Source: an uncultured Anaerolineales bacterium
Lineage (GTDB): Bacteria; Chloroflexota; Anaerolineae; UBA7937; JACPPX01
DNA length: 64,000 bases
Assembly (NCBI GenBank): GCA_964348195.1
Contig: CAYGBX010000003.1
Coordinates: 4,789 to 68,788 of the forward strand
Direction of reading: 5' to 3'
Part shown: one piece after another, positions 20,660-31,787 of the stretch
How the letters are laid out: every line of letters starts with the position of its first letter
Position numbering within the stretch: the stretch's first letter is position 1
The notes under the pieces: generated by a model
Databases searched by the model: none
What the model was told of the DNA's origin: nothing
What the model saw: only the letters and a program-made list of their open reading frames with translations
Translations under genes and position numbers: made by a program

Positions 20660-22009
20660 GTGGCTGGCGGCCCTCTGCCTCCCCAGAACATCGAAGCGGA
20701 ACAATCGGTTCTGGGGAGTCTTCTTTTGGACACGGACGCGGTCCTCCAGGTCTCCCCGTTTCTTTTGCCCCAGGACTTCTACCAGGAGTCCCACCGCCAG
20801 ATCTACCAAGCCATCCTCGATCTTCATGAGAAGCGCCAGCCCTCCGATCTCGTTACCCTGACCGACGAGCTGGAGCGCCGGGATCAGCTGGACGCAGTCG
20901 GCGGAGCCGCCTACCTTGCCTCCCTCACCAACGCGGTCCCAAGCCCGGTCCATGTGGAGCACTACGGCCACATCGTGGAACGGATCGCTGTCCTGCGACG
21001 GCTCATCGCGGCTTCAGGCGAGATCGCGGGGATGGCCTACGAAGAATCGGAGGATGTGGACCAGATCATCGACCACGCCGAGGAGATCATCTTCGGGGTT
21101 GCCCAGCGGAGGCTCGATCGGGATCTCATTCCCCTGGCCAAACACCTGGAGGAGTACTACGACTACATCGAGCAGGTCTCCGGCGAAAAGGGCGAGATCA
21201 TGGGGCTGCCCACCGGCTTCGACGATCTCGACAAGCTCCTTGCGGGGCTCCAAAGGTCTGATCTGATCATCGTGGCCGGACGGCCCGGCATGGGAAAGAC
21301 TAGCCTGGCGCTCAGCATCGCTTTCTCCGTCGCCCAGGAGCGGAACGCCCGAATCGCCCTGTTCAGCCTGGAGATGCCGTCCCAGCAACTGGCTGCCCGA
21401 CTGATCTGCGCCGCTACCGACCGAAATTCTCGCGTCGACTCGCTGAAGCTCCGTTCGGGGAAGCTCACCGACCACCAGCTCAGCGAGGTGATGCGCGCGA
21501 TGGGGGATCTTTCCCAGTACGAGATCTACATCGACGACTCGGCGACGCTCACACCTATGGAGCTCAGAGCCAAGGCTCGGAGGCTCCATGCCGAGAAGCC
21601 GCTGGATCTCGTCATCGTGGACTACCTTCAGCTCATGCGGGCTGGCATCCGGGCCGAGAACCGCGTGCGTGAGGTGTCCCATATCTCCCAGCAGCTCAAG
21701 GCGCTGGCGAGGGAGCTCCGCGTCCCGGTTCTGGCGTGCTCCCAGCTCTCGCGCGCGGTGGAGCTGCGGCACGACAAGCGGCCGGTACTCTCCGACCTGC
21801 GTGAGAGCGGCAGTATCGAACAGGATGCAGACGTGGTGATCTTCATCTACCGCGAGGTGGTAGGCGATGAGGAAGAGGCCGAACGGGCCAACGTGGCCGA
21901 CGTGATCGTCGCAAAGCACCGGAACGGTCCTACCGGACAGGTCCAGTTGGTGTTCCTAAAGGACCGCGCTCAGTTCGTGAGCGCCGAGCTCCGAAGGGTG
22001 GCAGCTTGA
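20660..22009 (+). CDS. dnaB: Replicative DNA helicase
   Basis: PPQNIEAEQSVLGSLL N-terminus, Walker A GRPGMGKTS, IVDYLQLM, SQLSR and ESGSIEQDAD motifs. Confidence 0.95.
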   Translation: MAGGPLPPQNIEAEQSVLGSLLLDTDAVLQVSPFLLPQDFYQESHRQIYQAILDLHEKRQPSDLVTLTDELERRDQLDAVGGAAYLASLTNAVPSPVHVEHYGHIVERIAVLRRLIAASGEIAGMAYEESEDVDQIIDHAEEIIFGVAQRRLDRDLIPLAKHLEEYYDYIEQVSGEKGEIMGLPTGFDDLDKLLAGLQRSDLIIVAGRPGMGKTSLALSIAFSVAQERNARIALFSLEMPSQQLAARLICAATDRNSRVDSLKLRSGKLTDHQLSEVMRAMGDLSQYEIYIDDSATLTPMELRAKARRLHAEKPLDLVIVDYLQLMRAGIRAENRVREVSHISQQLKALARELRVPVLACSQLSRAVELRHDKRPVLSDLRESGSIEQDADVVIFIYREVVGDEEEAERANVADVIVAKHRNGPTGQVQLVFLKDRAQFVSAELRRVAA

Positions 22010-22837: not shown

Positions 22838-24046
22838 GTGCCTTGTCCGCACCGTGCAGGCGAGCTCGCCGAGAAGAGGCTCGACGATCTACGACGGGCC
22901 AGCAACCTCGACCATCTGGCCGACAAGACCTTCGACACCTTCCTGCCGGAGGGCATTGGACTCCCTCCCCGAAGGAAGGAGAACCTGCGGCGTGCCTTCC
23001 ATCTGGCCAAGGAGTATGCCGATGAGCCGGCAGGCTGGCTGGTGCTCACCGGCGGCTACGGGTCCGGCAAGACCCATCTCGCAGCGGCCGTCGCCAATCT
23101 GCAGCTAGAGCGAGGAAAGTCGGTTCTCTTCGTGGTGGTTCCAGACCTGCTGGACCACCTCAGAGCCACTTTTGGGCCCGAGAGCGCGGTCCCTTACGAC
23201 GAACGGTTTCAGGCCCTGCGCGAGGCGCCGCTCCTGATCCTCGACGACCTGGGAACCGAGAGCACCACGCCCTGGGCCCAGGAGAAGCTCTACCAGCTCC
23301 TGAATCACAGGCACGTAGCCCAGCTGCCCACGGTGATCACCACCAACCGTCCGCTGGAGAAGATCGAGGCTCGGCTCCGCTCACGCATGGCTGAGCCGGG
23401 GTTCTCTCAGATCTACCACATAGAAGTCCCCGACTTTCGGGGTTCGGGTGTCGGGCCCTGGGAGGATCTGGATACCCTCGGTCTCTACAGCGACAAGACC
23501 TTCGACCGCTTCAACTCGCGCCAGGGAGAACTCCCCTCGGAGGAGGTGCAGAATCTCGGGCGGGCCGTTGAGCTGGCCCGCGGCTACGCTGAGGAGCCGG
23601 AAGGGTGGCTCACCCTCACCGGCGAGTACGGGTGTGGGAAGACACACCTGGCCGCGGCGATCGCCAACCGACGCAAGGACCTGGGAGCTCCGGCCCTGTT
23701 CATCGTGGTGCCGGACCTCCTGGACCATCTGCGAGCCGCCTACGATCCCAAGAGCACGGTTTCCTACGATCAGCTGTTCGAGATCGTTCGCCACGCTCCC
23801 TTCCTAGTCCTTGACGATCTTGGGACCCAGTCGGCTACCCCCTGGGCCCGGGAGAAGCTCTATCAGATCTTCAACCACCGCTATGCTGCCCGGCTTCCCA
23901 CCGTGATCACCATGCAAGAATCCCTGGAGGAGCTGGAACGCGAGGAGCCCCGACTTGCATCGCGCCTGGCCGACGTCGCGGTCTCCACGGTCTATGCCAT
24001 TCTGGCGCCCTCTTACCGTGGGGAACCTCGAAAGACCAAGCGATAG
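22838..24046 (+). CDS. DnaC/DnaI-like helicase loader with two tandem AAA+ modules; true 5' end probably upstream (zinc-ribbon coding sequence at 22763-22850 lacks a canonical start)
   Basis: Walker A GYGSGKTHL (aa 74-80) and GYGCGKTHL (aa 264-270). Walker B LLILDDLG and FLVLDDLG, offset exactly 190 aa. In-frame upstream sequence encodes EVCAICGGLGW...LVPCPH. Confidence 0.8.
   Translation: MPCPHRAGELAEKRLDDLRRASNLDHLADKTFDTFLPEGIGLPPRRKENLRRAFHLAKEYADEPAGWLVLTGGYGSGKTHLAAAVANLQLERGKSVLFVVVPDLLDHLRATFGPESAVPYDERFQALREAPLLILDDLGTESTTPWAQEKLYQLLNHRHVAQLPTVITTNRPLEKIEARLRSRMAEPGFSQIYHIEVPDFRGSGVGPWEDLDTLGLYSDKTFDRFNSRQGELPSEEVQNLGRAVELARGYAEEPEGWLTLTGEYGCGKTHLAAAIANRRKDLGAPALFIVVPDLLDHLRAAYDPKSTVSYDQLFEIVRHAPFLVLDDLGTQSATPWAREKLYQIFNHRYAARLPTVITMQESLEELEREEPRLASRLADVAVSTVYAILAPSYRGEPRKTKR
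22916..24013 (+). repeat. Intragenic tandem duplication (~570 nt unit) of the DnaC-like ATPase module
   Basis: Module 1 is about 22916-23443 and module 2 about 23486-24013. Roughly half of the aligned residues are identical by eye, including DKTFD, PDLLDHLRA, TPWA.EKLYQ and LPTVIT. Confidence 0.8.
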
Positions 24047-24844: not shown

Positions 24845-26161
24845 CTAGGCAACTTCCTCCAGGAGCTGCGTTAGTTGCCGAGCCACACGAGGGTCCTGCT
24901 CCCCCAGCTCACTCAACATCGCGCCATAGTAGCTCTCAAGGAAGGGACTGATCGACCGAGGAGGCACCCCGTAGCTGACAAGGGCCTCGTGGACTCCAGC
25001 GGCCTCCCCCGCCAGGAGGGTCAGATCTCCCAGGGTGAGAGCAGCAGCGACCCTGCCAGCGAGGGCACCGTTCGCTACAGCTAGGTCAGTTGGCAGCATG
25101 CTTGCGGAATCCAGCGCCTCGCGCACCCTGTCCTCCACCTGATGTCGAACCGCCTGGAAGTGTTCTGCGGCTTCCCGACCGTCCGTGGCCGGCGGGGCTG
25201 GTGAGCTTAGGGAACGCTCGACGATGATCCGCTCTACGGCTTCAGGGACCTGGCCAAACTCCTCCCCCAAGAACGAGCCTGGGATACGATCTCGAACCCC
25301 GGGACGCAGATTGAAGATGCGGCCCCCGTAGGTCAGAGGAATCCCCTGCTGCTGGAGAAGGGGCGCGAACGGAAGCAGGTTGGCTGCGGTGTGGAGCTGC
25401 TGCGCGGAGAGGATGGTCAGCCGTGGCCGGCTTCGTGTCAAGGCATGCTTCATCCGGGCCACCGGTACATCGGCGCCCAGATTGACCACATCCCATCCTC
25501 TTCGCCGGAGGAGGTATGAGATGAGGAGAGGGGCAAAAACATGTCTTTCATCTGGGGGACAAGCGACAAGGATGCGACCGCTCCGGGTGGGGTGTGGGGA
25601 AGCGATAATCAGTGCCTCCAGCCGTCGCATTGCCTGCTCGCTCGCAAAGTGCTCCTGCTGAACCGTGGCACGCCCCTCTTGCCAATCCTCCCCCAACATG
25701 GCCAGACCTTCAGATATGATCTGCACAGAGACCGTCTCCGCGGGGTAGACGGCGAAGGCCTGCGCCAGAATCTCGTCCGCGCGGTGCTCCTCAAAGTCCT
25801 TGCAGGCTTGCACCCATGAACGTCGAAGTTCTTCGAGCGCCGGCCCCTCAGCCGAGCCAACGAGAGCCGTACGGATAGAGTCGTAGGCCAGCTCCACCAA
25901 GGGATCCTTGCCCTCTTCCTCCAGGCGACGCCATAGCGCCACCGCTTTGGAGATAATCAGACCCTCCTCCTGCCGGGCGACCAGCCACTTCAAAGTCTGG
26001 ACATCCCGGGGAGAGTAGAGACGGTGTCCGCCCGGAGATCGCTCAGGCATCGGCAGCCCGTACCTCCGCTCCCAGGCACGGACAGTAGCTGGCTTCAACC
26101 CCGTCTCCTTCACCACAGCCTTGAGATTGAAGCTCGCCGCGTCTCCTTCGTCATAGATCAT
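24845..26161 (-). CDS. MerR-family, B12-binding light-responsive transcriptional regulator (CarH/LitR type) with ~130-aa C-terminal extension
   Basis: N-terminal MerR HTH (FNLKAVVKETGLKPATVRAWERRYGL). W-x9-E-H motif (WQEGRATVQQEH). B12-binding Rossmann region ILVACPPDERHVFAPLLISYLLRRRGWDVVNLGADVP (E-x-H). Confidence 0.85.
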   Translation of the reverse strand: MIYDEGDAASFNLKAVVKETGLKPATVRAWERRYGLPMPERSPGGHRLYSPRDVQTLKWLVARQEEGLIISKAVALWRRLEEEGKDPLVELAYDSIRTALVGSAEGPALEELRRSWVQACKDFEEHRADEILAQAFAVYPAETVSVQIISEGLAMLGEDWQEGRATVQQEHFASEQAMRRLEALIIASPHPTRSGRILVACPPDERHVFAPLLISYLLRRRGWDVVNLGADVPVARMKHALTRSRPRLTILSAQQLHTAANLLPFAPLLQQQGIPLTYGGRIFNLRPGVRDRIPGSFLGEEFGQVPEAVERIIVERSLSSPAPPATDGREAAEHFQAVRHQVEDRVREALDSASMLPTDLAVANGALAGRVAAALTLGDLTLLAGEAAGVHEALVSYGVPPRSISPFLESYYGAMLSELGEQDPRVARQLTQLLEEVA

Positions 26162-26326
26162 CGGCTAGACCACCCCTCTCAATCGAGGCCTCGGCATCTA
26201 CGCCACTCTTATACAACGATTGCACACTATTTGTCTAGTTTCACTCGCACCTCCCGGATCCGTGCGCCGTTCCGCTTCTAGCCCCTGAGTCTCCCTCCAG
26301 CGGGGAGGCCTCCTGTACTTACACCG

Positions 26327-26360
26327 AATCTCGACAAGAACCTGGACAACATGTTGACAA
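26327..26360 (+). promoter_or_regulatory. Candidate CarH-type operator: three direct repeats matching nAnnTnnACAn
   Basis: aatctcgACAa (26327-37), aacctggACAa (26339-49), catgttgACAa (26350-60). Each has A at position 2, T at position 5 and ACA at positions 8-10. The element overlaps the fasciclin-gene promoter. Confidence 0.6.
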
Positions 26361-26372
26361 TGCCTGTATAAT
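26343..26372 (+). promoter_or_regulatory. Candidate sigma-70 promoter of the fasciclin gene
   Basis: TGGACA (26343-48), 18-nt spacer, TATAAT (26367-72). RBS AAAGGAGGGAG lies ahead of the ATG at 26411. Confidence 0.5.
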
Positions 26373-26410
26373 AGCGACATTCCGTATCCCCACAAAGGAG
26401 GGAGATTCAG

Positions 26411-27370
26411 ATGAAAGTGCCCGTCTTAGTAGGGCTGGCGGCCCTGATTGCCATGGGGGTGGCGGCGTGCTCGCCGGCTCTTCCGCAGGCTCCAGCTGAA
26501 CCGCCAGCCATCCCTGCTCCGCCGGAGGCCTCAGAGCCCAGGACTGCACCCGATCCAGCCGACATCGTAGACACTGCAGTGGAGGACGGCCGCTTTACGA
26601 CTCTCGTAGCTGCTCTTGAAACGGCCAATCTGGCGGATGCACTCAAGGGCGAAGGTCCCTTTACAGTCTTCGCTCCCACCGACGCCGCGTTCGGGGCACT
26701 GCCTGAGGGGACCCTCACCAGTCTACTCGACAACATCCCCGTGCTGACCGACATCCTTCTCTACCACGTGGTGGACGGTGCGCTGCTGGCCACAGACGTG
26801 TCTCAGCTGAACTCGGCTCCCTCACTGATGGGTCAGTATGTAACCTTCGAATCCGACGCCCGTGGCGTCATGATCGATCAAGCGAATGTCATCCTCACCG
26901 ACATCGAGGCGAGCAATGGCGTGATCCACGTCATCGACGCTGTCCTTTTGCCTGAAAGCCGCAGCATCGTTGACATCGCAGTCGAAGACGGACGGTTCAC
27001 CACGCTGGTTGCAGCTCTCCAAGCAGCCGATCTGGCCGAGACACTGGCCGAGAATGGTCCCTTCACGGTCTTCGCTCCCACCGACGACGCCTTCGCACAG
27101 CTCCCAGAAGGTACCGTCGAGGCCTTGCTGCAGGACATCCCGGCACTGACCGACATCCTTCTCTACCACGTTGTCGACGGAAAGACGATGGCGGCTGAGG
27201 TAGCCGAACTCGATGCCAGCGAGGTAACAACGCTCCTGGGACAGACGCTGGGCGTCACGATCGAGGGACGCCGCGTGATGATCGGCGAGGCTCAGGTCCT
27301 AATTGCCGACATCGAAGCCTCCAACGGAGTCATGCACGTGATTGACAGCGTGCTCCTTCCCAGCTCCTAG
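26411..27370 (+). CDS. Lipoprotein with two fasciclin (FAS1) domains
   Basis: Signal peptide plus lipobox VAAC. FAS1 blocks are duplicated: RFTTLVAAL..A.L...L...GPFTVFAPTD.AF..LPEGT...LL.....LTDILLYHVVDG...NGVIHVID.VLLP. Confidence 0.9.
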   Translation: MKVPVLVGLAALIAMGVAACSPALPQAPAEPPAIPAPPEASEPRTAPDPADIVDTAVEDGRFTTLVAALETANLADALKGEGPFTVFAPTDAAFGALPEGTLTSLLDNIPVLTDILLYHVVDGALLATDVSQLNSAPSLMGQYVTFESDARGVMIDQANVILTDIEASNGVIHVIDAVLLPESRSIVDIAVEDGRFTTLVAALQAADLAETLAENGPFTVFAPTDDAFAQLPEGTVEALLQDIPALTDILLYHVVDGKTMAAEVAELDASEVTTLLGQTLGVTIEGRRVMIGEAQVLIADIEASNGVMHVIDSVLLPSS

Positions 27371-27517
27371 GATTGACTCGGCCTGGCTCGCATGAGCCCG
27401 GTCGAGCAGAGCGAAGCGACCAACGAGCGGGTTGGGCGAGGCCCCAGCCCGCTCGGCCTTGAACGCACCGAAGCCCAGACCTCGGTCCGGGCCCTGCCCG
27501 TATCCGCCACGGAGGCT

Positions 27518-28282
27518 CTAGTCCGATCGCACTCCCGTACGGTCCCCCACACTGCGTCTCACGGCCACCGCGGCCGCCAGTGCAGCCAGTCCAGCAGCGA
27601 CCCAACTGGCATTGCCGACAACCGCCACGCTGACATTCCGAACCCCAATGCCGGCCAGGGCCCACACCAGAACCATGGAGAAGGCGAAGTCGGATCGCGC
27701 GAGCGCTAGGATCCAGCCGATCGTCAGCGCTACAGCCACCATGAAGACGGTCCAGACTTCGGGGTCGATCCCCAGTCCACCCCAGCCCAAGACGACAAAA
27801 ACCACGGCAGCGTTGGCGATCGTGGCAACACTGATCCAGCCAAGGTAGATGCTTACGGGAAGGTGCACCAGCAATCGCTCCCCAAGCGGGACCGATTCCC
27901 TTCCTACTCCCAGCCTCAGGTAGGTGGCGATGAGCAGTCCCAGAAGCGCGACCATCGCCACAAGTGTGAGGGGGAACAACTCATAGTGCCAAAGGAGAAT
28001 CCACGCGATGTTAGCCAGCCCGCTCATGGCAAACCAGTCTCTGCTTCGATGCAGCCGCAGGTTCTGTCGCTGGGCCGGTAGCGCCTGATACACGGCGAAA
28101 GCCACCAGCCCCAGATAGATCAGACCCCAAATGACGAACACGTAGTTTGCCGGCGTGAAATAGACGTCAAAGCGATTGGATATCTCCCCCGTTGTCTGTC
28201 CGTTGATCGGCAGCGCATTGGCCAGACCGTTTACCACCAACGTGGCCAGGACAGATACCACTACGGCAACACTTCCCATCAT
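27518..28282 (-). CDS. TspO/MBR-related tryptophan-rich membrane protein (long form)
   Basis: Start MMGSVAVVV after GGGAGGG. Five or more TM segments. Blocks NALPINGQTTGEISNRFDVYFTPANYVFVIWGLIYL and NIAWILLWHYE resemble actinobacterial/cyanobacterial TspO-related proteins. The track ORF start at 28537 overlaps the upstream gene. Confidence 0.55.
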   Translation of the reverse strand: MMGSVAVVVSVLATLVVNGLANALPINGQTTGEISNRFDVYFTPANYVFVIWGLIYLGLVAFAVYQALPAQRQNLRLHRSRDWFAMSGLANIAWILLWHYELFPLTLVAMVALLGLLIATYLRLGVGRESVPLGERLLVHLPVSIYLGWISVATIANAAVVFVVLGWGGLGIDPEVWTVFMVAVALTIGWILALARSDFAFSMVLVWALAGIGVRNVSVAVVGNASWVAAGLAALAAAVAVRRSVGDRTGVRSD

Positions 28283-28319
28283 TCGCCCTCCCGGCTGGCA
28301 GAACAGGATTGTCCCGCCA

Positions 28320-29819
28320 TCATGCTCCTTCCAGTCGAACTGCCTCCTCTGCTGCAAGGCTACCTGCTCGTCGCACCAGATTCCGCAGCAGGCCATCGAA
28401 GATGAGGCTGTGAATAGGATAGAGCAGAACCCAATATGCCAGGCCAAGTAGGCCTTTCGGCGCGTAGATCGCCGTCTGGTGGAGAACCGCCTGCCCCTCC
28501 GAAACAGGAGCGATGGCGAACTCCAACCACGCCTCACCCGGCAACTTCATGTCAGCCCTCAGTCGCAGTCGCCGGTTCGGCTCCAGCTCTTCAACCGTCC
28601 AGAAGTCTACCGTGTCCCCCACCCGCAAGCTTCTCATCGTTCCACGCCTCGCACGCAGGCCAACTCCTCCCAGGACCCGATCGATCGCGCCGCGCAGTCG
28701 CCACACCCAGTTCATATAGAGCCAGCCTCGATCGCCACCGAGCTCCGAGAGAGCTTTGAATACCCTGGCGGCAGACACCTCAGCCGTGCGCTTCCGGTGC
28801 TCTAGAATCATCCCCCTCCGCCATGCAAACTTCACGTGAAGACTGTCCGAACCACGTAGCTCTGCCATGTCCCGGTCGACCGCTGCCATACGCAACTCCC
28901 GCAGCGCAGATCGGACGGCGGTCGTATAGTCCATCGGTTCAATATGCGGGAATAATCGGCGTGCCGAATCCTCCCTAACGATCACCTCATTGCGCAAACC
29001 CTCGATCAAGGGCTGCGCAACATTCGCAGAAATCGGAGTCACTAGGTGCACCCAATAGGAAGACAGGCGCGGAGTCAGGACCGGCACCGGAAGCATGGCA
29101 CGGCGCAGACCCCGCACCTCCGCGTACCGCGTCATCATCTCTGCGTAGGTGAGAATCTCGTCTCCACCGATCTCAATGATCCGTCCCTCGCTCCGCGGCT
29201 GGGTCAGCGCCTGTTCGAGGTAATCCAGACAGTCCTCGATGGCGATGGGTTGGATCCGGGTGTATACCCACCGTGGGCAGATCATCACCGGGAGATGCTC
29301 AGTGAGGTATCGCACCATCTCGAAAGAGAGGCTACCGGCCCCTACGACGACTGCAGCCCTGAATTCGGTGACCGCGACGCCGCCCTGTCGCAGTGCTTCG
29401 CCTGTCTTCTGGCGCGACTCCAAGTGAGGCGAGAGGCTTTCCTCAGGGTTCCCGAGGCCACCAAGGTAGATGATGCGCCGTACCGCCCCCCGCTTTGCGG
29501 CCAGGCCAAAATGCCCAGCGGCCTCCACATCCGTCCGGTGGAACTGACTACCAGCCATCATGCCATGGATCAAGTAGTAGGCTGTGTGAATTCCGGCTAG
29601 GGCAGGCTTGAGAGTCTCCGGGCGAAGTACATCACCCCTCACAACCTCTACGCGGTCTCTCCAGGGTTGATCTCTGAGACCTGACGGGTCCCTGACCATG
29701 ACACGCACGTCGTATTCGGATTGCAGCAACCGAGGAATGAGTCTGCTCCCGATGTATCCCGTGGCACCGGTGACCAGGATCCGCTTCCTGCTGTTCGTCC
29801 CCGCTCCGGCTTCGCTCAT
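28320..29819 (-). CDS. NAD(P)-binding SDR-family protein with C-terminal DUF2867-like domain
   Basis: RILVTGATGYIGSRLIPRLL Rossmann motif, about 300-aa NmrA/SDR-like part plus a 170-aa C-terminal domain. Its ATG overlaps the uvdE stop (ATGA). Confidence 0.75.
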   Translation of the reverse strand: MSEAGAGTNSRKRILVTGATGYIGSRLIPRLLQSEYDVRVMVRDPSGLRDQPWRDRVEVVRGDVLRPETLKPALAGIHTAYYLIHGMMAGSQFHRTDVEAAGHFGLAAKRGAVRRIIYLGGLGNPEESLSPHLESRQKTGEALRQGGVAVTEFRAAVVVGAGSLSFEMVRYLTEHLPVMICPRWVYTRIQPIAIEDCLDYLEQALTQPRSEGRIIEIGGDEILTYAEMMTRYAEVRGLRRAMLPVPVLTPRLSSYWVHLVTPISANVAQPLIEGLRNEVIVREDSARRLFPHIEPMDYTTAVRSALRELRMAAVDRDMAELRGSDSLHVKFAWRRGMILEHRKRTAEVSAARVFKALSELGGDRGWLYMNWVWRLRGAIDRVLGGVGLRARRGTMRSLRVGDTVDFWTVEELEPNRRLRLRADMKLPGEAWLEFAIAPVSEGQAVLHQTAIYAPKGLLGLAYWVLLYPIHSLIFDGLLRNLVRRAGSLAAEEAVRLEGA

Positions 29820-30847
29820 TTCAAAGAGGCTCGCTTCTCGAAGTCTGCCGACCTCTCCCCGAAGCCGAACAACACAGCAAGGTCGGGAGCGTAGCGGATC
29901 AGATCCTCCCGCAGCTGCAGCAGGGCGAGGTCCTTGGCCTTGGCTTCCAGCATGACATCCGGCCCAAGCGGGCCTAGCGGCCGATAGAACTCAACAAAGG
30001 CGAAGGGGTCGACAAACTCGGCATGGGCCCTCCAGGAGCGCTGGGTGATCCCCGACTTCCTGCCCTCTCGAAATCCCCAGTCGGTGCGCGGTGAGGAGTA
30101 GTGCAGTTTTGGATGTGCATTCCAATCATCCCAGGTCTCCAAGCATGCCTGAGCGGCTTCGACCATCGGGATGTCGTCCGGATCGTAGCAGCGGTGGTGG
30201 TGCCCATCGAAAACCACCCGGATTCCGGTCTGGCGATGGAGGCGCAGCACGTCAGCGACGCCAAAGCGGCTGTCGTCGTTTTCCACCACCAGCCGTCGGC
30301 GAGCCACCGCGGACAAACAGTCGAGTCGGCGCGCAAAGCGCTCCAACGCGTCGCTCCAGTCACCATAGACTCCACCGACGTGAGTATTCACCACCGCGTC
30401 GTCGTCCAGGCCCATCGCCTCCAGGATTTCAGCCTGAACTTCGATGTCGGCCATCGACCGCTGTGCCAGCTCATCGTCGGGTGTGTTCAGCACAACGAAC
30501 TGTCCCGGGTGGAAAGACATTCGAACGCCCTGTTCCCGAATCGCTGCACCGATCAAATCTAGGCGCCGGCGGCTTTCTTCGACCTGGCCGTGGAACTGTG
30601 GATGATCCGGATGGGTTGCGTAGGGAGCCAATGCCGAGGCCATGCGATACATGCCGATCCCCTGGTCATGCAGGTACTCCAGGACACGGCTGAGGTGATC
30701 CAGGCTGACCCGCAGGCTGGGGCCGCTTGACCAGCGTCGCGAATCGTGGGAGCGCAAACCCGGCCGACCCAGGACCTTCACGGCAAAGCCCAGCCGGGGT
30801 CGCCGATCTGTCTCTCCCGTCGGCTTCTGCGTATCAAAGGGATTCAC
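29816..30847 (-). CDS. uvdE: UV damage endonuclease
   Basis: RLGFAVKVLG...GIGMYRMASALAPYATHP...SFHPGQFVVLN...NTHVGG, the TIM-barrel UvdE/UvsE blocks. GTG start. Confidence 0.85.
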   Translation of the reverse strand: MNPFDTQKPTGETDRRPRLGFAVKVLGRPGLRSHDSRRWSSGPSLRVSLDHLSRVLEYLHDQGIGMYRMASALAPYATHPDHPQFHGQVEESRRRLDLIGAAIREQGVRMSFHPGQFVVLNTPDDELAQRSMADIEVQAEILEAMGLDDDAVVNTHVGGVYGDWSDALERFARRLDCLSAVARRRLVVENDDSRFGVADVLRLHRQTGIRVVFDGHHHRCYDPDDIPMVEAAQACLETWDDWNAHPKLHYSSPRTDWGFREGRKSGITQRSWRAHAEFVDPFAFVEFYRPLGPLGPDVMLEAKAKDLALLQLREDLIRYAPDLAVLFGFGERSADFEKRASLK

Positions 30848-31021
30848 TGGAAGCCTTTCAGGATGTCACGCGTCGCGGATGCCTGGCCCTATGTCCGGTG
30901 GGGTGGCCCGTCACAGCATGGGGCCTCGCAGCGGAGAGGATCGATGTCGCGGAGGGTCCTTCTAGAACTCCCTACGTGTAGTCCATCCAACTCCCGGACC
31001 CATCTGGCCACCAGGATCCAC

Positions 31022-31695
31022 CTAGTCCGCATTCCGCATCACGCGATCTACGAGGGAGCGATCTTGCAGAAACGCTCCGCGGAGGGCCTGGGTGTGCATG
31101 GTGCCTCTCCGCTGCTCGACCCCCCGCATTGCCGTGCACAGGTGAAATCCCTCCACGACCACTGCAACCCCGAGCGGATCCAAACGATCGTCAATGAAAT
31201 CCGCGATCTCAGCCGTCATGCGCTCCTGAACCTGCAGTCGACGGGAGAATGCATCCACAATCCGCGGGATCTTGCTCAATCCCACCAGCCGCCCCTGCGG
31301 GATGTACGCCACATGCGCCTTGCCGTAGAAGGGCAGCAAGTGATGCTCGCATGTGCTGTAGAAGTCGAGGTCTGCTACCGTCACGGGCTCATCGTAGTCC
31401 TCATGGAAAACCGCACCGTTGATGATCGCGTCCAGGTCCACATCGTATCCGCTGGTGATCTCTCGCAACATGCTCGCAACCCGCCGGGGGGATCCCTAAG
31501 GCCCTCACGTTGCGGGTCCTCGCCTAGCTCGACGAGCAGAGTGTGCACCGCTTCAATCATCTCCAGTGGGGGCAACTGCTCGCCCCGAACGGCCATCACC
31601 CGTTCGAGCCTTCCTCTCCCAGCCAATTCCCGCCCGACGACGAGATCAGGCATAGCATCGCTGGCCCCTTCAAGGTTGAGAGCGCTCGAAGTCAT
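31022..31695 (-). pseudogene. folE: GTP cyclohydrolase I, reading frame broken by a 1-nt deletion in a homopolymer (or sequencing error)
   Basis: ATG at 31695 with GGGAGG 8 nt upstream gives ...LVELGEDPQREGLRDPP. The rest (RRVASMLREITSGY...YSTCEHHLLPFYGKAHVAYIP...) continues in the -1 frame. The join is at the G6 run 31486-31491. Total length is 674 nt, which is 225 codons minus 1 nt. Confidence 0.85.
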
Positions 31696-31732: not shown

Positions 31733-31761
31733 ACAATATCAGATATCGCGCGAAGTGTCAA
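31733..31761 (-). promoter_or_regulatory. Candidate sigma-70 promoter of the folE-uvdE-SDR-tspO-like operon
   Basis: Minus strand: TTGACA (31761-31756), 17-nt spacer, extended -10 TGaTATTGT (31741-31733). The -35 hexamer lies inside operator repeat 3. Confidence 0.55.
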
Positions 31762-31787
31762 CATCTTGTCTAGATAGTGTACAAGGT
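31755..31787 (-). promoter_or_regulatory. Second candidate CarH-type operator (three exactly 11-bp-spaced direct repeats on the minus strand)
   Basis: Minus strand reads accttgtACAc tatctagACAa gatgttgACAc. Repeats 2 and 3 fit nAnnTnnACAn perfectly and are 9/11 identical to repeats 1 and 3 of the 26327-26360 element. Confidence 0.6.

What the first reader, a model, noticed from the sequence alone, without database searches (positions are those of the whole stretch)
26327..26372. Triple direct-repeat CarH-type operator overlapping the promoter of a fasciclin-domain lipoprotein gene
Three direct repeats lie in the divergent intergenic region next to the regulator gene:
- aatctcgACAa (26327-37)
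- aacctggACAa (26339-49)
- catgttgACAa (26350-60)

All three fit nAnnTnnACAn. As I recall, that is the 11-bp repeat pattern of the three-repeat operator reported for Thermus thermophilus CarH.

The repeats cover the -35 (TGGACA, 26343-48) and the spacer of a TATAAT promoter (26367-72) that reads into the FAS1 gene. A secreted fasciclin protein is not a usual member of carotenoid/photolyase light regulons.
Basis: partly seen in the sequence, partly recalled or inferred. Interest (0 to 1): 0.7.

Follow-up and report, generated by a model that had tools for sequence, protein, structure and literature searches.

The report
Light-repressor operator on a fasciclin gene
The three repeats are real and are very probably the binding site of the neighbouring vitamin-B12 light-sensing repressor, which predicts that a cell-surface fasciclin lipoprotein is switched on by light in these Chloroflexota; the operator type is known, but this target gene has not been reported.

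Summary
The three repeats sit exactly at 26327-37, 26339-49 and 26350-60 and all fit nAnnTnnACAn. DR1 lies 12 bp, not 11 bp, from DR2. A fourth pseudo-repeat (26361-71) continues the 11-bp register over the TATAAT box.

Such arrays are far above chance: 2 in the window against 0.025 expected.

- **Second array.** It has three perfect repeats (31787-31755, minus strand). It precedes a UV/light-type operon: folE, uvdE, SDR/DUF2867, TspO-like.
- **Third, weaker array.** It covers the regulator's own promoter.
- **Regulator (24845-26161).** Its DNA-binding domain is CarH-like, and it carries the Wx9EH and ExH AdoCbl-photoreceptor motifs.
- **Spacing in 80 related genomes.** TnnACA pairs 11 bp apart occur 49 times upstream of its homologs, against 1.6 expected.
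- **Fasciclin homologs.** Arrays recur upstream of them in metagenomes (6/64 vs 0/139 control upstream regions). The closest ortholog keeps the divergent regulator-fasciclin layout.

The CarH-type operator reading is supported; binding and light response remain inferred.

Two corrections:
- The regulator is not a canonical CarH. It carries an extra photocobilin-like (photoglobin) C-terminal domain.
- Light-induced fasciclin genes have precedents in Mycobacterium kansasii and Synechocystis.

Verdict: a new member of a known kind, of moderate interest.

The parts
24845..26161 (-). Regulator gene, 438 aa: MerR-type HTH + B12-binding_2 + B12-binding + C-terminal helical (photoglobin-like) domain
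   Evidence: Pfam MerR_1 7.6e-12, B12-binding_2 1.3e-10, B12-binding 1.8e-5. Best NCBIfam match is CarH at 134 bits, below the cutoff of 400. Best PDB sequence matches are TtCarH 3WHP/5C8D, E about 7e-25. W160-x9-E170-H171 and E205-x-H207 are invariant in 24 homologs. AF2 model pLDDT 86; Foldseek TMt 0.81-0.82 to photocobilins 8J2W/8J2X/8J2Y.
26209..26241 (-). Array at the regulator's own promoter: aaacTagACAa / atagTgtGCAa / tcgtTgtATAa (one perfect repeat and two pseudo-repeats, 11-bp register)
   Evidence: Relaxed scan, scores [4,3,3]; sequence. Two perfect units on the + strand (26206-26227) overlap it. Arrays pointing into the regulator gene are the commonest case among homologs.
26208..26237 (-). 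Putative regulator promoter: TAGACA (26237-26232), 18 nt, TATAAG (26213-26208)
   Evidence: Read from the sequence. The promoter scan did not flag it because the last base of the -10 is G. Inferred.
26327..26337 (+). DR1 aatcTcgACAa (perfect unit, 12 bp from DR2)
   Evidence: Among regulator homologs TnnACA pairs 23 bp apart (11+12) are as frequent as pairs 22 bp apart.
26339..26349 (+). DR2 aaccTggACAa (perfect unit, contains the -35 TGGACA)
26350..26360 (+). DR3 catgTtgACAa (perfect unit, in the promoter spacer)
26361..26371 (+). dr4 tgccTgtAtAa (pseudo-repeat, 3 of 4 key bases, covers most of the -10 TATAAT)
   Evidence: Strict scan [4,4,3] for 26339-26371.
26343..26372 (+). Fasciclin promoter: TGGACA, 18 nt, TATAAT
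   Evidence: The only promoter-like site in 26100-27600, 11 of 12 matches.
26395..26402 (+). Ribosome-binding site AAGGAGGG, 8 nt before the ATG
   Evidence: Sequence.
26411..27370 (+). Fasciclin lipoprotein gene, 319 aa, two FAS1 domains; signal peptide with lipobox VAAC (Cys20)
   Evidence: Pfam Fasciclin 1.7e-75, 2 stretches. A19 and C20 are invariant in 16 homologs.
31755..31787 (-). Second operator: accTTgtACAc / tatcTagACAa / gatgTtgACAc, three perfect repeats in 11-bp register
   Evidence: The only other strict array in the window, scores [4,4,4]; sequence.
31733..31761 (-). folE operon promoter: TTGACA (inside DR3), 17 nt, TATTGT with TG
   Evidence: Promoter scan, 10 of 12 matches.
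27518..31695 (-). Putative co-regulated operon: folE (31695-31022, frameshifted), uvdE (30847-29816), SDR/DUF2867 (29819-28320), TspO/MBR-like membrane protein (28240-27518)
   Evidence: NCBIfam FolE 4.4e-57. Pfam UvdE 9.3e-51 and DUF2867 3.5e-28. Pfam TspO_MBR 24.6 bits against a cutoff of 24. ORFs are contiguous or overlapping on one strand.

Best explanation
The repeats form an operator for the divergently encoded CarH-like, B12-dependent photoreceptor repressor.

**Proposed mechanism (inferred by analogy with T. thermophilus CarH):**
1. In the dark, the AdoCbl-loaded regulator oligomerises.
2. Its MerR-type DNA-binding domains occupy successive TnnACA repeats on one face of the DNA.
3. The occupied repeats are DR2 (-35), DR3 (spacer) and dr4 (-10), probably helped by DR1. 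RNA polymerase is shut out of the fasciclin promoter.
4. Light photolyses AdoCbl, the oligomer falls apart, and the fasciclin lipoprotein gene is transcribed.
5. The regulator's own gene and the folE-uvdE-SDR-TspO operon carry the same kind of array and would be induced together.

**Shown here:**
- the repeats, their position over the promoter and their rarity;
- the regulator's CarH-like DNA-binding domain and AdoCbl-photoreceptor motifs;
- recurrence of such arrays at regulator homologs and fasciclin homologs.

**Inferred:** binding, repression, oligomeric state and light response.
For: - **Motif and layout.** The motif and its overlap with the promoter match the published CarH operator definition (PMC9304148).
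- **Rarity.** 2 strict arrays in the window against 0.025 expected.
- **Internal control.** The only other strict array precedes folE-uvdE-SDR/DUF2867-TspO-like, a plausible light/UV regulon. Its -35 TTGACA lies inside the third repeat. A DR-dr-dr array covers the regulator's promoter.
- **Regulator.** The recognition helix and wing are close to TtCarH (..[24 protein letters not shown]..). Wx9EH and ExH are invariant across 24 homologs.
- **Regulator homologs (641 kb, 80 Chloroflexota loci).**
  - 22 of 29 strict array hits lie within about 250 bp upstream of the regulator gene (17 loci).
  - 3 more precede crtI-regulator operons.
  - TnnACA pairs at 11 bp: 49 against 1.55 expected. Secondary peaks lie at 22, 23 and 33 bp.
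- **Fasciclin homologs.**
  - Strict arrays lie within 250 bp upstream in 6 of 64 loci against 0 of 139 control upstream regions (Fisher p = 8e-4).
  - Adjacent perfect pairs: 12 of 64 against 2 of 139 (p = 2e-5).
- **Synteny.**
  - L081 keeps the divergent regulator (54% identity) and fasciclin (62% identity) layout, with repeats at both promoters.
  - L017 (Caldilineaceae) has an array upstream of a fasciclin lipoprotein 3.5 kb from the regulator.
  - L096 has a short CarH-like gene next to a fasciclin gene.
Against: - DR1-DR2 spacing is 12 bp, so only DR2-DR3-dr4 are in strict register.
- TnnACA overlaps the -35 consensus TTGACA, so AT-rich promoter regions are mildly enriched for single units.
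- Only a minority of fasciclin homologs carry an array: 6-12 of 64. Only 1 of 80 regulator loci has a fasciclin gene within 4 kb.
- The closest regulator homolog on a long contig (P0002) has no adjacent fasciclin gene and no clear array.
- The regulator differs from characterised CarH proteins by an extra C-terminal domain. Its oligomerisation and signal could therefore differ.
- There are no expression or binding data.
Confidence: 0.72

Rival explanations
1. The functional operator is only the in-register core DR2-DR3-dr4 (26339-26371). DR1 would be a decayed or accessory unit that is not contacted. This mirrors Thermus CarH, which uses three of its four DNA-binding domains.
For: The strict 11-bp register holds only for 26339-26371. 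The regulator promoter and the L081 fasciclin promoter share the layout -35 repeat / spacer repeat / -10 pseudo-repeat. Thermus CarH uses three repeats (PMC9304148).
Against: DR1 is a perfect unit with the A at position 2. TnnACA pairs 23 bp apart are as frequent as pairs 22 bp apart upstream of regulator homologs (9 vs 9, background about 0.4). One-base slips therefore seem to be tolerated. L096 also shows 12-bp spacing.
Confidence: 0.35
2. The regulator binds these repeats, but its signal is not simply green or near-UV light acting through AdoCbl. The photoglobin-like C-terminal domain might bind a bilin and extend the response to red light. Alternatively the protein might report B12 availability or act light-independently, as Myxococcus CarA does.
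For: The C-terminal domain and B12 module match photocobilins at TMt 0.81-0.82, and the profile aligns to 8J2Y through position 412. Photocobilins use biliverdin to drive B12 photochemistry with red light (PMC10979010). CarA is B12-independent (PMC9304148).
Against: Wx9EH and ExH are invariant, which argues for AdoCbl photochemistry. In my reading of the alignment, the position matching the key biliverdin-binding Asp270 of SasPcob is variable in this family (tentative). No heme oxygenase was looked for.
Confidence: 0.25
3. The repeats are a chance cluster of -35-like hexamers or UP-like promoter sequence, with no dedicated repressor.
For: TTGACA and TGGACA are -35-like, and the spacer is less GC-rich than the window (54% vs 62%).
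Against: Expected 0.025 per window and 0.0005 per spacer shuffle. There is a sharp 11-bp spacing peak at regulator homologs, 49 vs 1.55. Arrays recur at fasciclin homologs but not at control upstream regions.
Confidence: 0.04

Closest known systems
CarH/LitR operator of Thermus thermophilus and Bacillus megaterium (tandem 11-bp direct repeats nnnnTnnACAn)
   Same: Same repeat motif, with A at position 2 in all three repeats named in the finding. It has three to four units and is read on the sense strand. A -35 element lies inside one repeat and the array overlaps the -10. It sits in a divergent spacer next to the regulator gene, which appears to be autoregulated.
   Different: There is one 12-bp step (DR1-DR2). 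The target is a secreted fasciclin lipoprotein rather than carotenoid or photolyase genes. The cognate regulator carries an extra domain.
CarH, the AdoCbl-dependent photoreceptor repressor (PDB 5C8D/5C8E/5C8F)
   Same: MerR-type winged HTH with a near-identical recognition helix and wing. Four-helix bundle with Wx9EH and a Rossmann domain with ExH. Family members sit next to or in operons with crtI/crtB-like genes.
   Different: 438 aa against about 290 aa. It has an additional C-terminal helical (photoglobin-like) domain of about 110 aa. It falls below the NCBIfam CarH equivalog cutoff. Its oligomeric state is unknown.
Photocobilins (SasPcob 8J2W/8J2X, AbPcob 8J2Y) and the MerR-HTH + B12 + photoglobin architecture catalogued by Schneider et al. 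(PMC8717448)
   Same: The B12 module plus the C-terminal globin-like domain superpose over the whole photocobilin chain (TMt 0.81-0.82). The MerR-fused architecture is listed in that survey.
   Different: The characterised photocobilins are stand-alone proteins or are fused to a diguanylate cyclase. No DNA-binding member, operator or regulon has been described. The key biliverdin-binding Asp is not evidently conserved here.
Light-induced fasciclin genes: M. kansasii mpk83/mpk70, Synechocystis sll1483
   Same: FAS1-domain envelope proteins are up-regulated by light: 6-fold and 3-fold in M. kansasii, alongside crt, phrB and tspO. In Synechocystis the induction is by high light or singlet oxygen.
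   Different: The regulators are different or unknown (RpaB/HLR1 in Synechocystis). No CarH-type operator has been reported for these genes.

Membership tests
CarH-type operator | Three or more tandem units matching nnnnTnnACAn | tested here: met
   Three perfect units and one 3-of-4 pseudo-unit at 26327-26371. Definition from PMC9304148.
CarH-type operator | 11-bp register between successive units | tested here: inconclusive
   DR2-DR3-dr4 are exactly 11 bp apart, but DR1-DR2 is 12 bp. The 23-bp (11+12) spacing is common among homolog loci.
CarH-type operator | Overlaps the -35 and/or -10 of the regulated promoter | tested here: met
   TGGACA lies in DR2 and TATAAT in dr4.
CarH-type operator | A cognate CarH-like regulator is encoded in the genome, and the motif co-occurs with that regulator family | tested here: met
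   The divergent regulator gene. 22 of 29 array hits lie just upstream of homologs. The 11-bp spacing count is 49 against 1.55 expected.
CarH-type operator | Dark, AdoCbl-dependent binding that is lost in light | not testable with these tools
   Needs EMSA or footprinting.
CarH (AdoCbl photoreceptor repressor) | N-terminal MerR-type winged helix DNA-binding domain similar to CarH | tested here: met
   Pfam MerR_1. Aligns to TtCarH residues 13-82 and to the CarA DNA-binding domain 2JML.
CarH (AdoCbl photoreceptor repressor) | Wx9EH motif in the four-helix bundle and E/DxH lower-axial His in the Rossmann domain | tested here: met
   W160, E170, H171, E205 and H207 are invariant in 24 sequences and align to the TtCarH motifs.
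CarH (AdoCbl photoreceptor repressor) | Scores above the curated NCBIfam CarH equivalog cutoff | tested here: not met
   NF052513: 134.3 bits against a cutoff of 400.
CarH (AdoCbl photoreceptor repressor) | Two-module architecture (DNA-binding domain + B12-binding domain only) | tested here: not met
   An extra helical domain spans residues about 328-437. It is conserved in the family.
CarH (AdoCbl photoreceptor repressor) | Genomic link to carotenoid genes | tested here: met
   Met for the family: crtI-regulator operons in L021, L026 and L038, and crtB- or crtI-like divergent neighbours. No crt gene was seen beside the regulator in this window.
Photocobilin / B12-photoglobin module | CarH-like B12-binding module followed by a C-terminal globin-like helical domain | tested here: met
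   Foldseek to 8J2W/8J2X/8J2Y: E 4e-14, TMt 0.81-0.82 over about 340 columns. The profile aligns to 8J2Y through the globin domain.
Photocobilin / B12-photoglobin module | Bilin-pocket residues (SasPcob Asp270, Trp296; AbPcob Trp289) | tested here: inconclusive
   Family residue W389 aligns to AbPcob W289. The Asp270-equivalent column looks variable. This rests on one profile alignment read by eye.
Photocobilin / B12-photoglobin module | Binds biliverdin and responds to red light | not testable with these tools
   Needs spectroscopy.
Bacterial fasciclin (FAS1) lipoprotein | FAS1 domains plus a lipoprotein signal peptide | tested here: met
   Two Fasciclin stretches, E 1.7e-75. MKVPVLVGLAALIAMGVAAC, with A19 and C20 invariant in homologs.

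The most novel reading that the evidence does not exclude
The regulator would be a natural DNA-binding photocobilin: a MerR repressor whose B12 photochemistry is tuned by a bilin in its photoglobin domain. Through TnnACA repeat operators it would place a cell-surface fasciclin adhesin, together with UV-repair and pterin genes, under broad-spectrum light control in non-phototrophic Anaerolineae. That would be light-regulated surface adhesion through a dual-chromophore transcription factor.
Probability: 0.2. Interest if true: 0.7.

Novelty: new member of a known kind. Interest (0 to 1): 0.45.

Why it matters
- **Regulon.** It would extend the CarH/LitR light regulon beyond carotenoids, photolyase and folE to a secreted FAS1 lipoprotein. 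It offers a regulatory handle on why fasciclin genes appear in light-induced transcriptomes of unrelated bacteria.
- **Uncharacterised architecture.** It supplies a concrete operator, a promoter and a small regulon for the MerR-B12-photoglobin architecture, which has been catalogued but never studied. That makes a DNA-binding photocobilin directly testable by EMSA with or without AdoCbl and biliverdin, in dark and in green or red light. Such a protein could be useful as an optogenetic part.
- **Limit.** The operator type itself is already well known.

Tried and rejected
- **Intergenic alignment.** Aligning the spacer with that of the closest ortholog (L081) was uninformative. The DNA is too diverged, so only motif-level comparison was possible.
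- **P0002 context.** This is the closest regulator homolog on a long contig. It has no fasciclin neighbour and no clear array upstream.
- **Failed look-ups.** Look-ups of the window's own regulator (P0001) and of a member of its 90%-identity cluster (P0241) returned nothing. No organism names were available.
- **C-terminal domain.** A sequence-only PDB search of this domain alone found nothing meaningful, and Pfam found nothing. The fold search and the profile search were what identified it.
- **Alternative promoter.** Pairing the perfect TTGACA in DR3 (26354-59) with a -10 placed 16-17 nt downstream (GACATT or ACATTC) was rejected as poor. TGGACA-18-TATAAT is the only scan hit.
- **Fourth GACA.** The one at 26376-79 is 20 bp from DR3, out of phase, and is not counted as a repeat.
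- **Weak relaxed-scan hits.** Hits inside coding regions (22904, 34109, 35287, 63377; scores of 10 or less with 12-bp steps) were judged to be chance.
- **Literature.** Searches for fasciclin with CarH or LitR gave only irrelevant papers.

Full report
**1. The observation**

- aatctcgACAa at 26327-37
- aacctggACAa at 26339-49
- catgttgACAa at 26350-60

All three fit nAnnTnnACAn. The promoter scan finds one sigma-70-like site in 26100-27600: TGGACA (26343-48), 18 nt, TATAAT (26367-72), 11 of 12 matches. AAGGAGGG lies 8 nt before the ATG at 26411.

Two details were not in the finding:
- The ACA triplets are 12 bp and then 11 bp apart, so DR1 is one base out of register.
- The next 11-mer, tgccTgtAtAa (26361-71), keeps the T and two of the three ACA bases. 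It carries most of the -10 box.

The in-register core is therefore DR2 (-35) / DR3 (spacer) / dr4 (-10), with DR1 one helical turn plus one base upstream.

**2. Chance**

| Measure | Observed | Expected from shuffles |
|---|---|---|
| Single 11-mer pattern, both strands of 64 kb | 51 (4 in this 249-bp spacer) | not computed |
| Strict arrays in the window | 2 | 0.025 (200 dinucleotide shuffles) |
| Triples of perfect TnnACA spaced 10-12 bp | 2 | 0.01 |
| Strict array in the spacer alone | 1 | 0.0005 per shuffle (2000 shuffles) |

A strict array is three units in 11-bp register with at least 2 perfect units and at least 11 of 12 key bases.

**3. What else is in the window**

The only other strict array is at 31787-31755 on the minus strand: accTTgtACAc tatcTagACAa gatgTtgACAc. 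All three units are perfect and in exact register. Its third unit contains the -35 of a TTGACA-17-TATTGT promoter.

That promoter reads into four contiguous or overlapping genes on one strand:

| Gene | Coordinates (minus strand) | Evidence |
|---|---|---|
| folE (GTP cyclohydrolase I), split by a frameshift | 31695-31022 | NCBIfam 4.4e-57 |
| uvdE (UV-damage endonuclease) | 30847-29816 | Pfam 9.3e-51 |
| SDR/DUF2867 protein | 29819-28320 | Pfam |
| TspO/MBR-like membrane protein | 28240-27518 | Pfam 24.6 bits, cutoff 24 |

From my own knowledge, folE is a recurrent LitR/CarH target in Pseudomonas and Burkholderia. tspO is light-induced beside phrB in M. kansasii (PMC9861118). This second array acts as an internal positive control for the motif.

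A weaker array covers the regulator's own promoter: aaacTagACAa atagTgtGCAa tcgtTgtATAa, 26241-26209 on the minus strand, with TAGACA-18-TATAAG. It has the same layout of -35 repeat, spacer repeat and -10 pseudo-repeat.

The fasciclin gene thus sits between the regulator and the end of the folE operon, inside a small light/UV-type cluster.

**4. The regulator**

- **Best matches.** Its best NCBIfam model is CarH, at 134 bits against a cutoff of 400. Its best PDB sequence matches are T. thermophilus CarH entries 3WHP and 5C8D (E about 7e-25).
- **DNA-binding domain.** The recognition helix and wing are close to TtCarH: ..[24 protein letters not shown].. against ..[24 protein letters not shown]... 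This gives a rationale for a shared DNA motif.
- **Photoreceptor signatures.** W160-x9-E170-H171 and E205-x-H207 are invariant in 24 homologs.
- **Family.** It is large (2637 proteins at E <= 1e-10). Its members are about 440 aa long, and the named ones come from Anaerolineae and other Chloroflexota.

The protein is not a canonical CarH. Residues about 328-437 form an extra helical domain (AF2 model, pLDDT 86).
- The B12 module plus this domain match photocobilins 8J2W, 8J2X and 8J2Y better than CarH (TMt 0.81-0.82).
- The family profile aligns to 8J2Y through position 412.
- Photocobilins pair AdoCbl with biliverdin held in a C-terminal globin-like domain (PMC10979010).
- The MerR-HTH + B12 + photoglobin architecture was catalogued by Schneider et al., who state that none of these loci has been studied (PMC8717448).
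- Bilin binding is uncertain. The pocket Trp aligns (family W389 with AbPcob W289). The position I equate with SasPcob Asp270 is variable. This is a tentative reading of a single alignment.

**5. Comparative evidence for the regulator-motif link**

I fetched 80 genome loci (641 kb) encoding homologs of 30-50% identity. They contain 29 strict array hits:

| Location | Array hits |
|---|---|
| Within about 250 bp upstream of the regulator gene (17 loci), mostly oriented into it | 22 |
| Upstream of crtI in crtI-regulator operons (L021, L026, L038) | 3 |
| Upstream of a fasciclin gene (L017) | 1 |
| Elsewhere | 3 |

The spacing of TnnACA pairs in the 300 bp upstream of the regulators peaks sharply at 11 bp: 49 pairs against 1.55 expected from the rest of the loci. 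Harmonics appear at 22 bp (9), 23 bp (9) and 33 bp (10). The 23-bp peak shows that an 11+12 slip, as in DR1-DR2-DR3 here, is a common variant.

Divergent neighbours include crtB-like and crtI-like genes, methyltransferases, SDRs, UvrC and the same TspO-like protein. By context the family therefore behaves like CarH.

**6. Comparative evidence for fasciclin as a target**

I fetched 80 metagenomic loci encoding the closest fasciclin homologs.

| Test, within 250 bp upstream on the sense strand | Fasciclin loci | Control ORF upstream regions | Fisher p |
|---|---|---|---|
| Strict array | 6 of 64 (L082, L083, L084, L097, L142, L158) | 0 of 139 | 8e-4 |
| Adjacent perfect pair | 12 of 64 | 2 of 139 | 2e-5 |

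Three loci place a regulator gene beside or near a fasciclin gene:
- **L081**, the closest ortholog, keeps the divergent pair: regulator 54% identical, fasciclin 62% identical. It has two perfect repeats at the regulator promoter. At the fasciclin promoter (TTGACA-17-TATTAT) it has a DR-dr array plus two perfect units on the opposite strand.
- **L017** (Caldilineaceae) has aatcTgtACAt atcaTggACAa tagaTttGCAa about 100 bp upstream of a fasciclin lipoprotein, 3.5 kb from the regulator.
- **L096** has a short CarH-like gene convergent with a fasciclin gene. The fasciclin upstream region holds two TgtACA units 12 bp apart.

The association is recurrent but not universal. Most fasciclin homologs lack an array. 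Only 1 of 80 regulator loci has a fasciclin gene within 4 kb.

**7. Mechanism**

By analogy with TtCarH (PMC9304148):
1. In the dark, the AdoCbl-bound oligomer would occupy DR2-DR3-dr4, probably with DR1.
2. That occludes the -35 to -10 of the fasciclin promoter.
3. Photolysis of AdoCbl would dissolve the oligomer and derepress three units: the fasciclin gene, the regulator itself and the folE-uvdE-SDR-TspO operon.

Shown: the anatomy, the statistics, the conservation and the receptor motifs. Inferred: binding, repression, stoichiometry and the light signal. The photoglobin domain may alter the spectral range or the oligomerisation.

Why a FAS1 lipoprotein should be light-induced is unknown. 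A role in surface adhesion or envelope remodelling is speculation.

**8. Comparison with what is known, and novelty**

The operator type is known. The regulator architecture has been catalogued but not characterised.

Fasciclin genes have been seen in light-induced transcriptomes:
- M. kansasii mpk83 and mpk70, induced 6-fold and 3-fold (PMC9861118).
- Synechocystis sll1483, which carries an HLR1 element (bioRxiv 10.1101/2023.09.22.558817).

I found no paper connecting them to CarH or LitR.

This is a new, comparatively well supported regulon member and operator instance of a known kind. Interest is moderate. It rises if the regulator proves to be a DNA-binding, dual-chromophore photocobilin.

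Noticed in passing
window 31755-31787 (-): A second array of three perfect repeats in exact 11-bp register. It overlaps the -35 of a TTGACA-17-TATTGT promoter that reads into folE-uvdE-SDR/DUF2867-TspO-like. It is the only other strict array in the window.
   Followed up: yes
window 31486-31491 (C6 run), inside folE 31022-31695 (-): folE is split into two frames. Frame 1 reads REGLRDPPGG and frame 2 reads GSPRRVASMLREITSGY. One nucleotide appears to be missing in or beside a run of six C. This is either an assembly error or a pseudogene.
   Followed up: partly
window 24845-25180 (-), regulator residues about 328-437: The regulator has a conserved C-terminal helical domain. Together with the B12 module it matches photocobilins 8J2W/8J2X/8J2Y (TMt 0.81-0.82). 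The protein is therefore a MerR-HTH + B12 + photoglobin protein, an architecture that has been catalogued but never characterised. The bilin-binding Asp is not evidently conserved.
   Followed up: partly
window 27518-28240 (-): A TspO/MBR-like membrane protein (Pfam 24.6 bits, cutoff 24) is the last gene of the folE operon. The longer ORF call (339 aa, from 28537) overlaps the preceding SDR/DUF2867 gene, so it probably has a spurious N-terminal extension. Homologs lie next to the regulator family in 6 of 80 loci.
   Followed up: partly
window 26206-26227 (+): Two perfect repeats on the plus strand (ctctTatACAa cgatTgcACAc) overlap the minus-strand array at the regulator promoter. That site can therefore be read in both orientations. 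L014 and L084 also have arrays on both strands.
   Followed up: no
window 22838-24046 (+): A 402-aa ORF downstream of dnaB (20660..22009). I read it as a DnaC/IstB-like ATPase from its GSGKT/GCGKT P-loop motifs, without a domain search. It consists of two tandem halves that are 54% identical (BLASTP E 4e-65), an internally duplicated protein.
   Followed up: partly
L021 2346-2378, L026 2349-2381, L038 2373-2405 (+): In three Anaerolineales loci the repeat array lies upstream of crtI (phytoene desaturase), which is immediately followed by the regulator gene. These are crtI-regulator operons, the classical CarH context.
   Followed up: partly
L001-L080, 300 bp upstream of regulator homologs: The TnnACA pair-spacing histogram peaks at 11 bp (49 vs 1.55 expected), with further peaks at 22, 23 and 33 bp. 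The 23-bp peak equals the 22-bp peak, so one-base slips between repeats are frequent in this family's operators.
   Followed up: yes
one search hit table (P0009 and P0044): Two distinct full-length paralogs of the regulator (50% and 49% identical to the query) are encoded on the same 4.87-Mb Anaerolineae contig. Some genomes therefore carry two such regulators; this window shows one.
   Followed up: no
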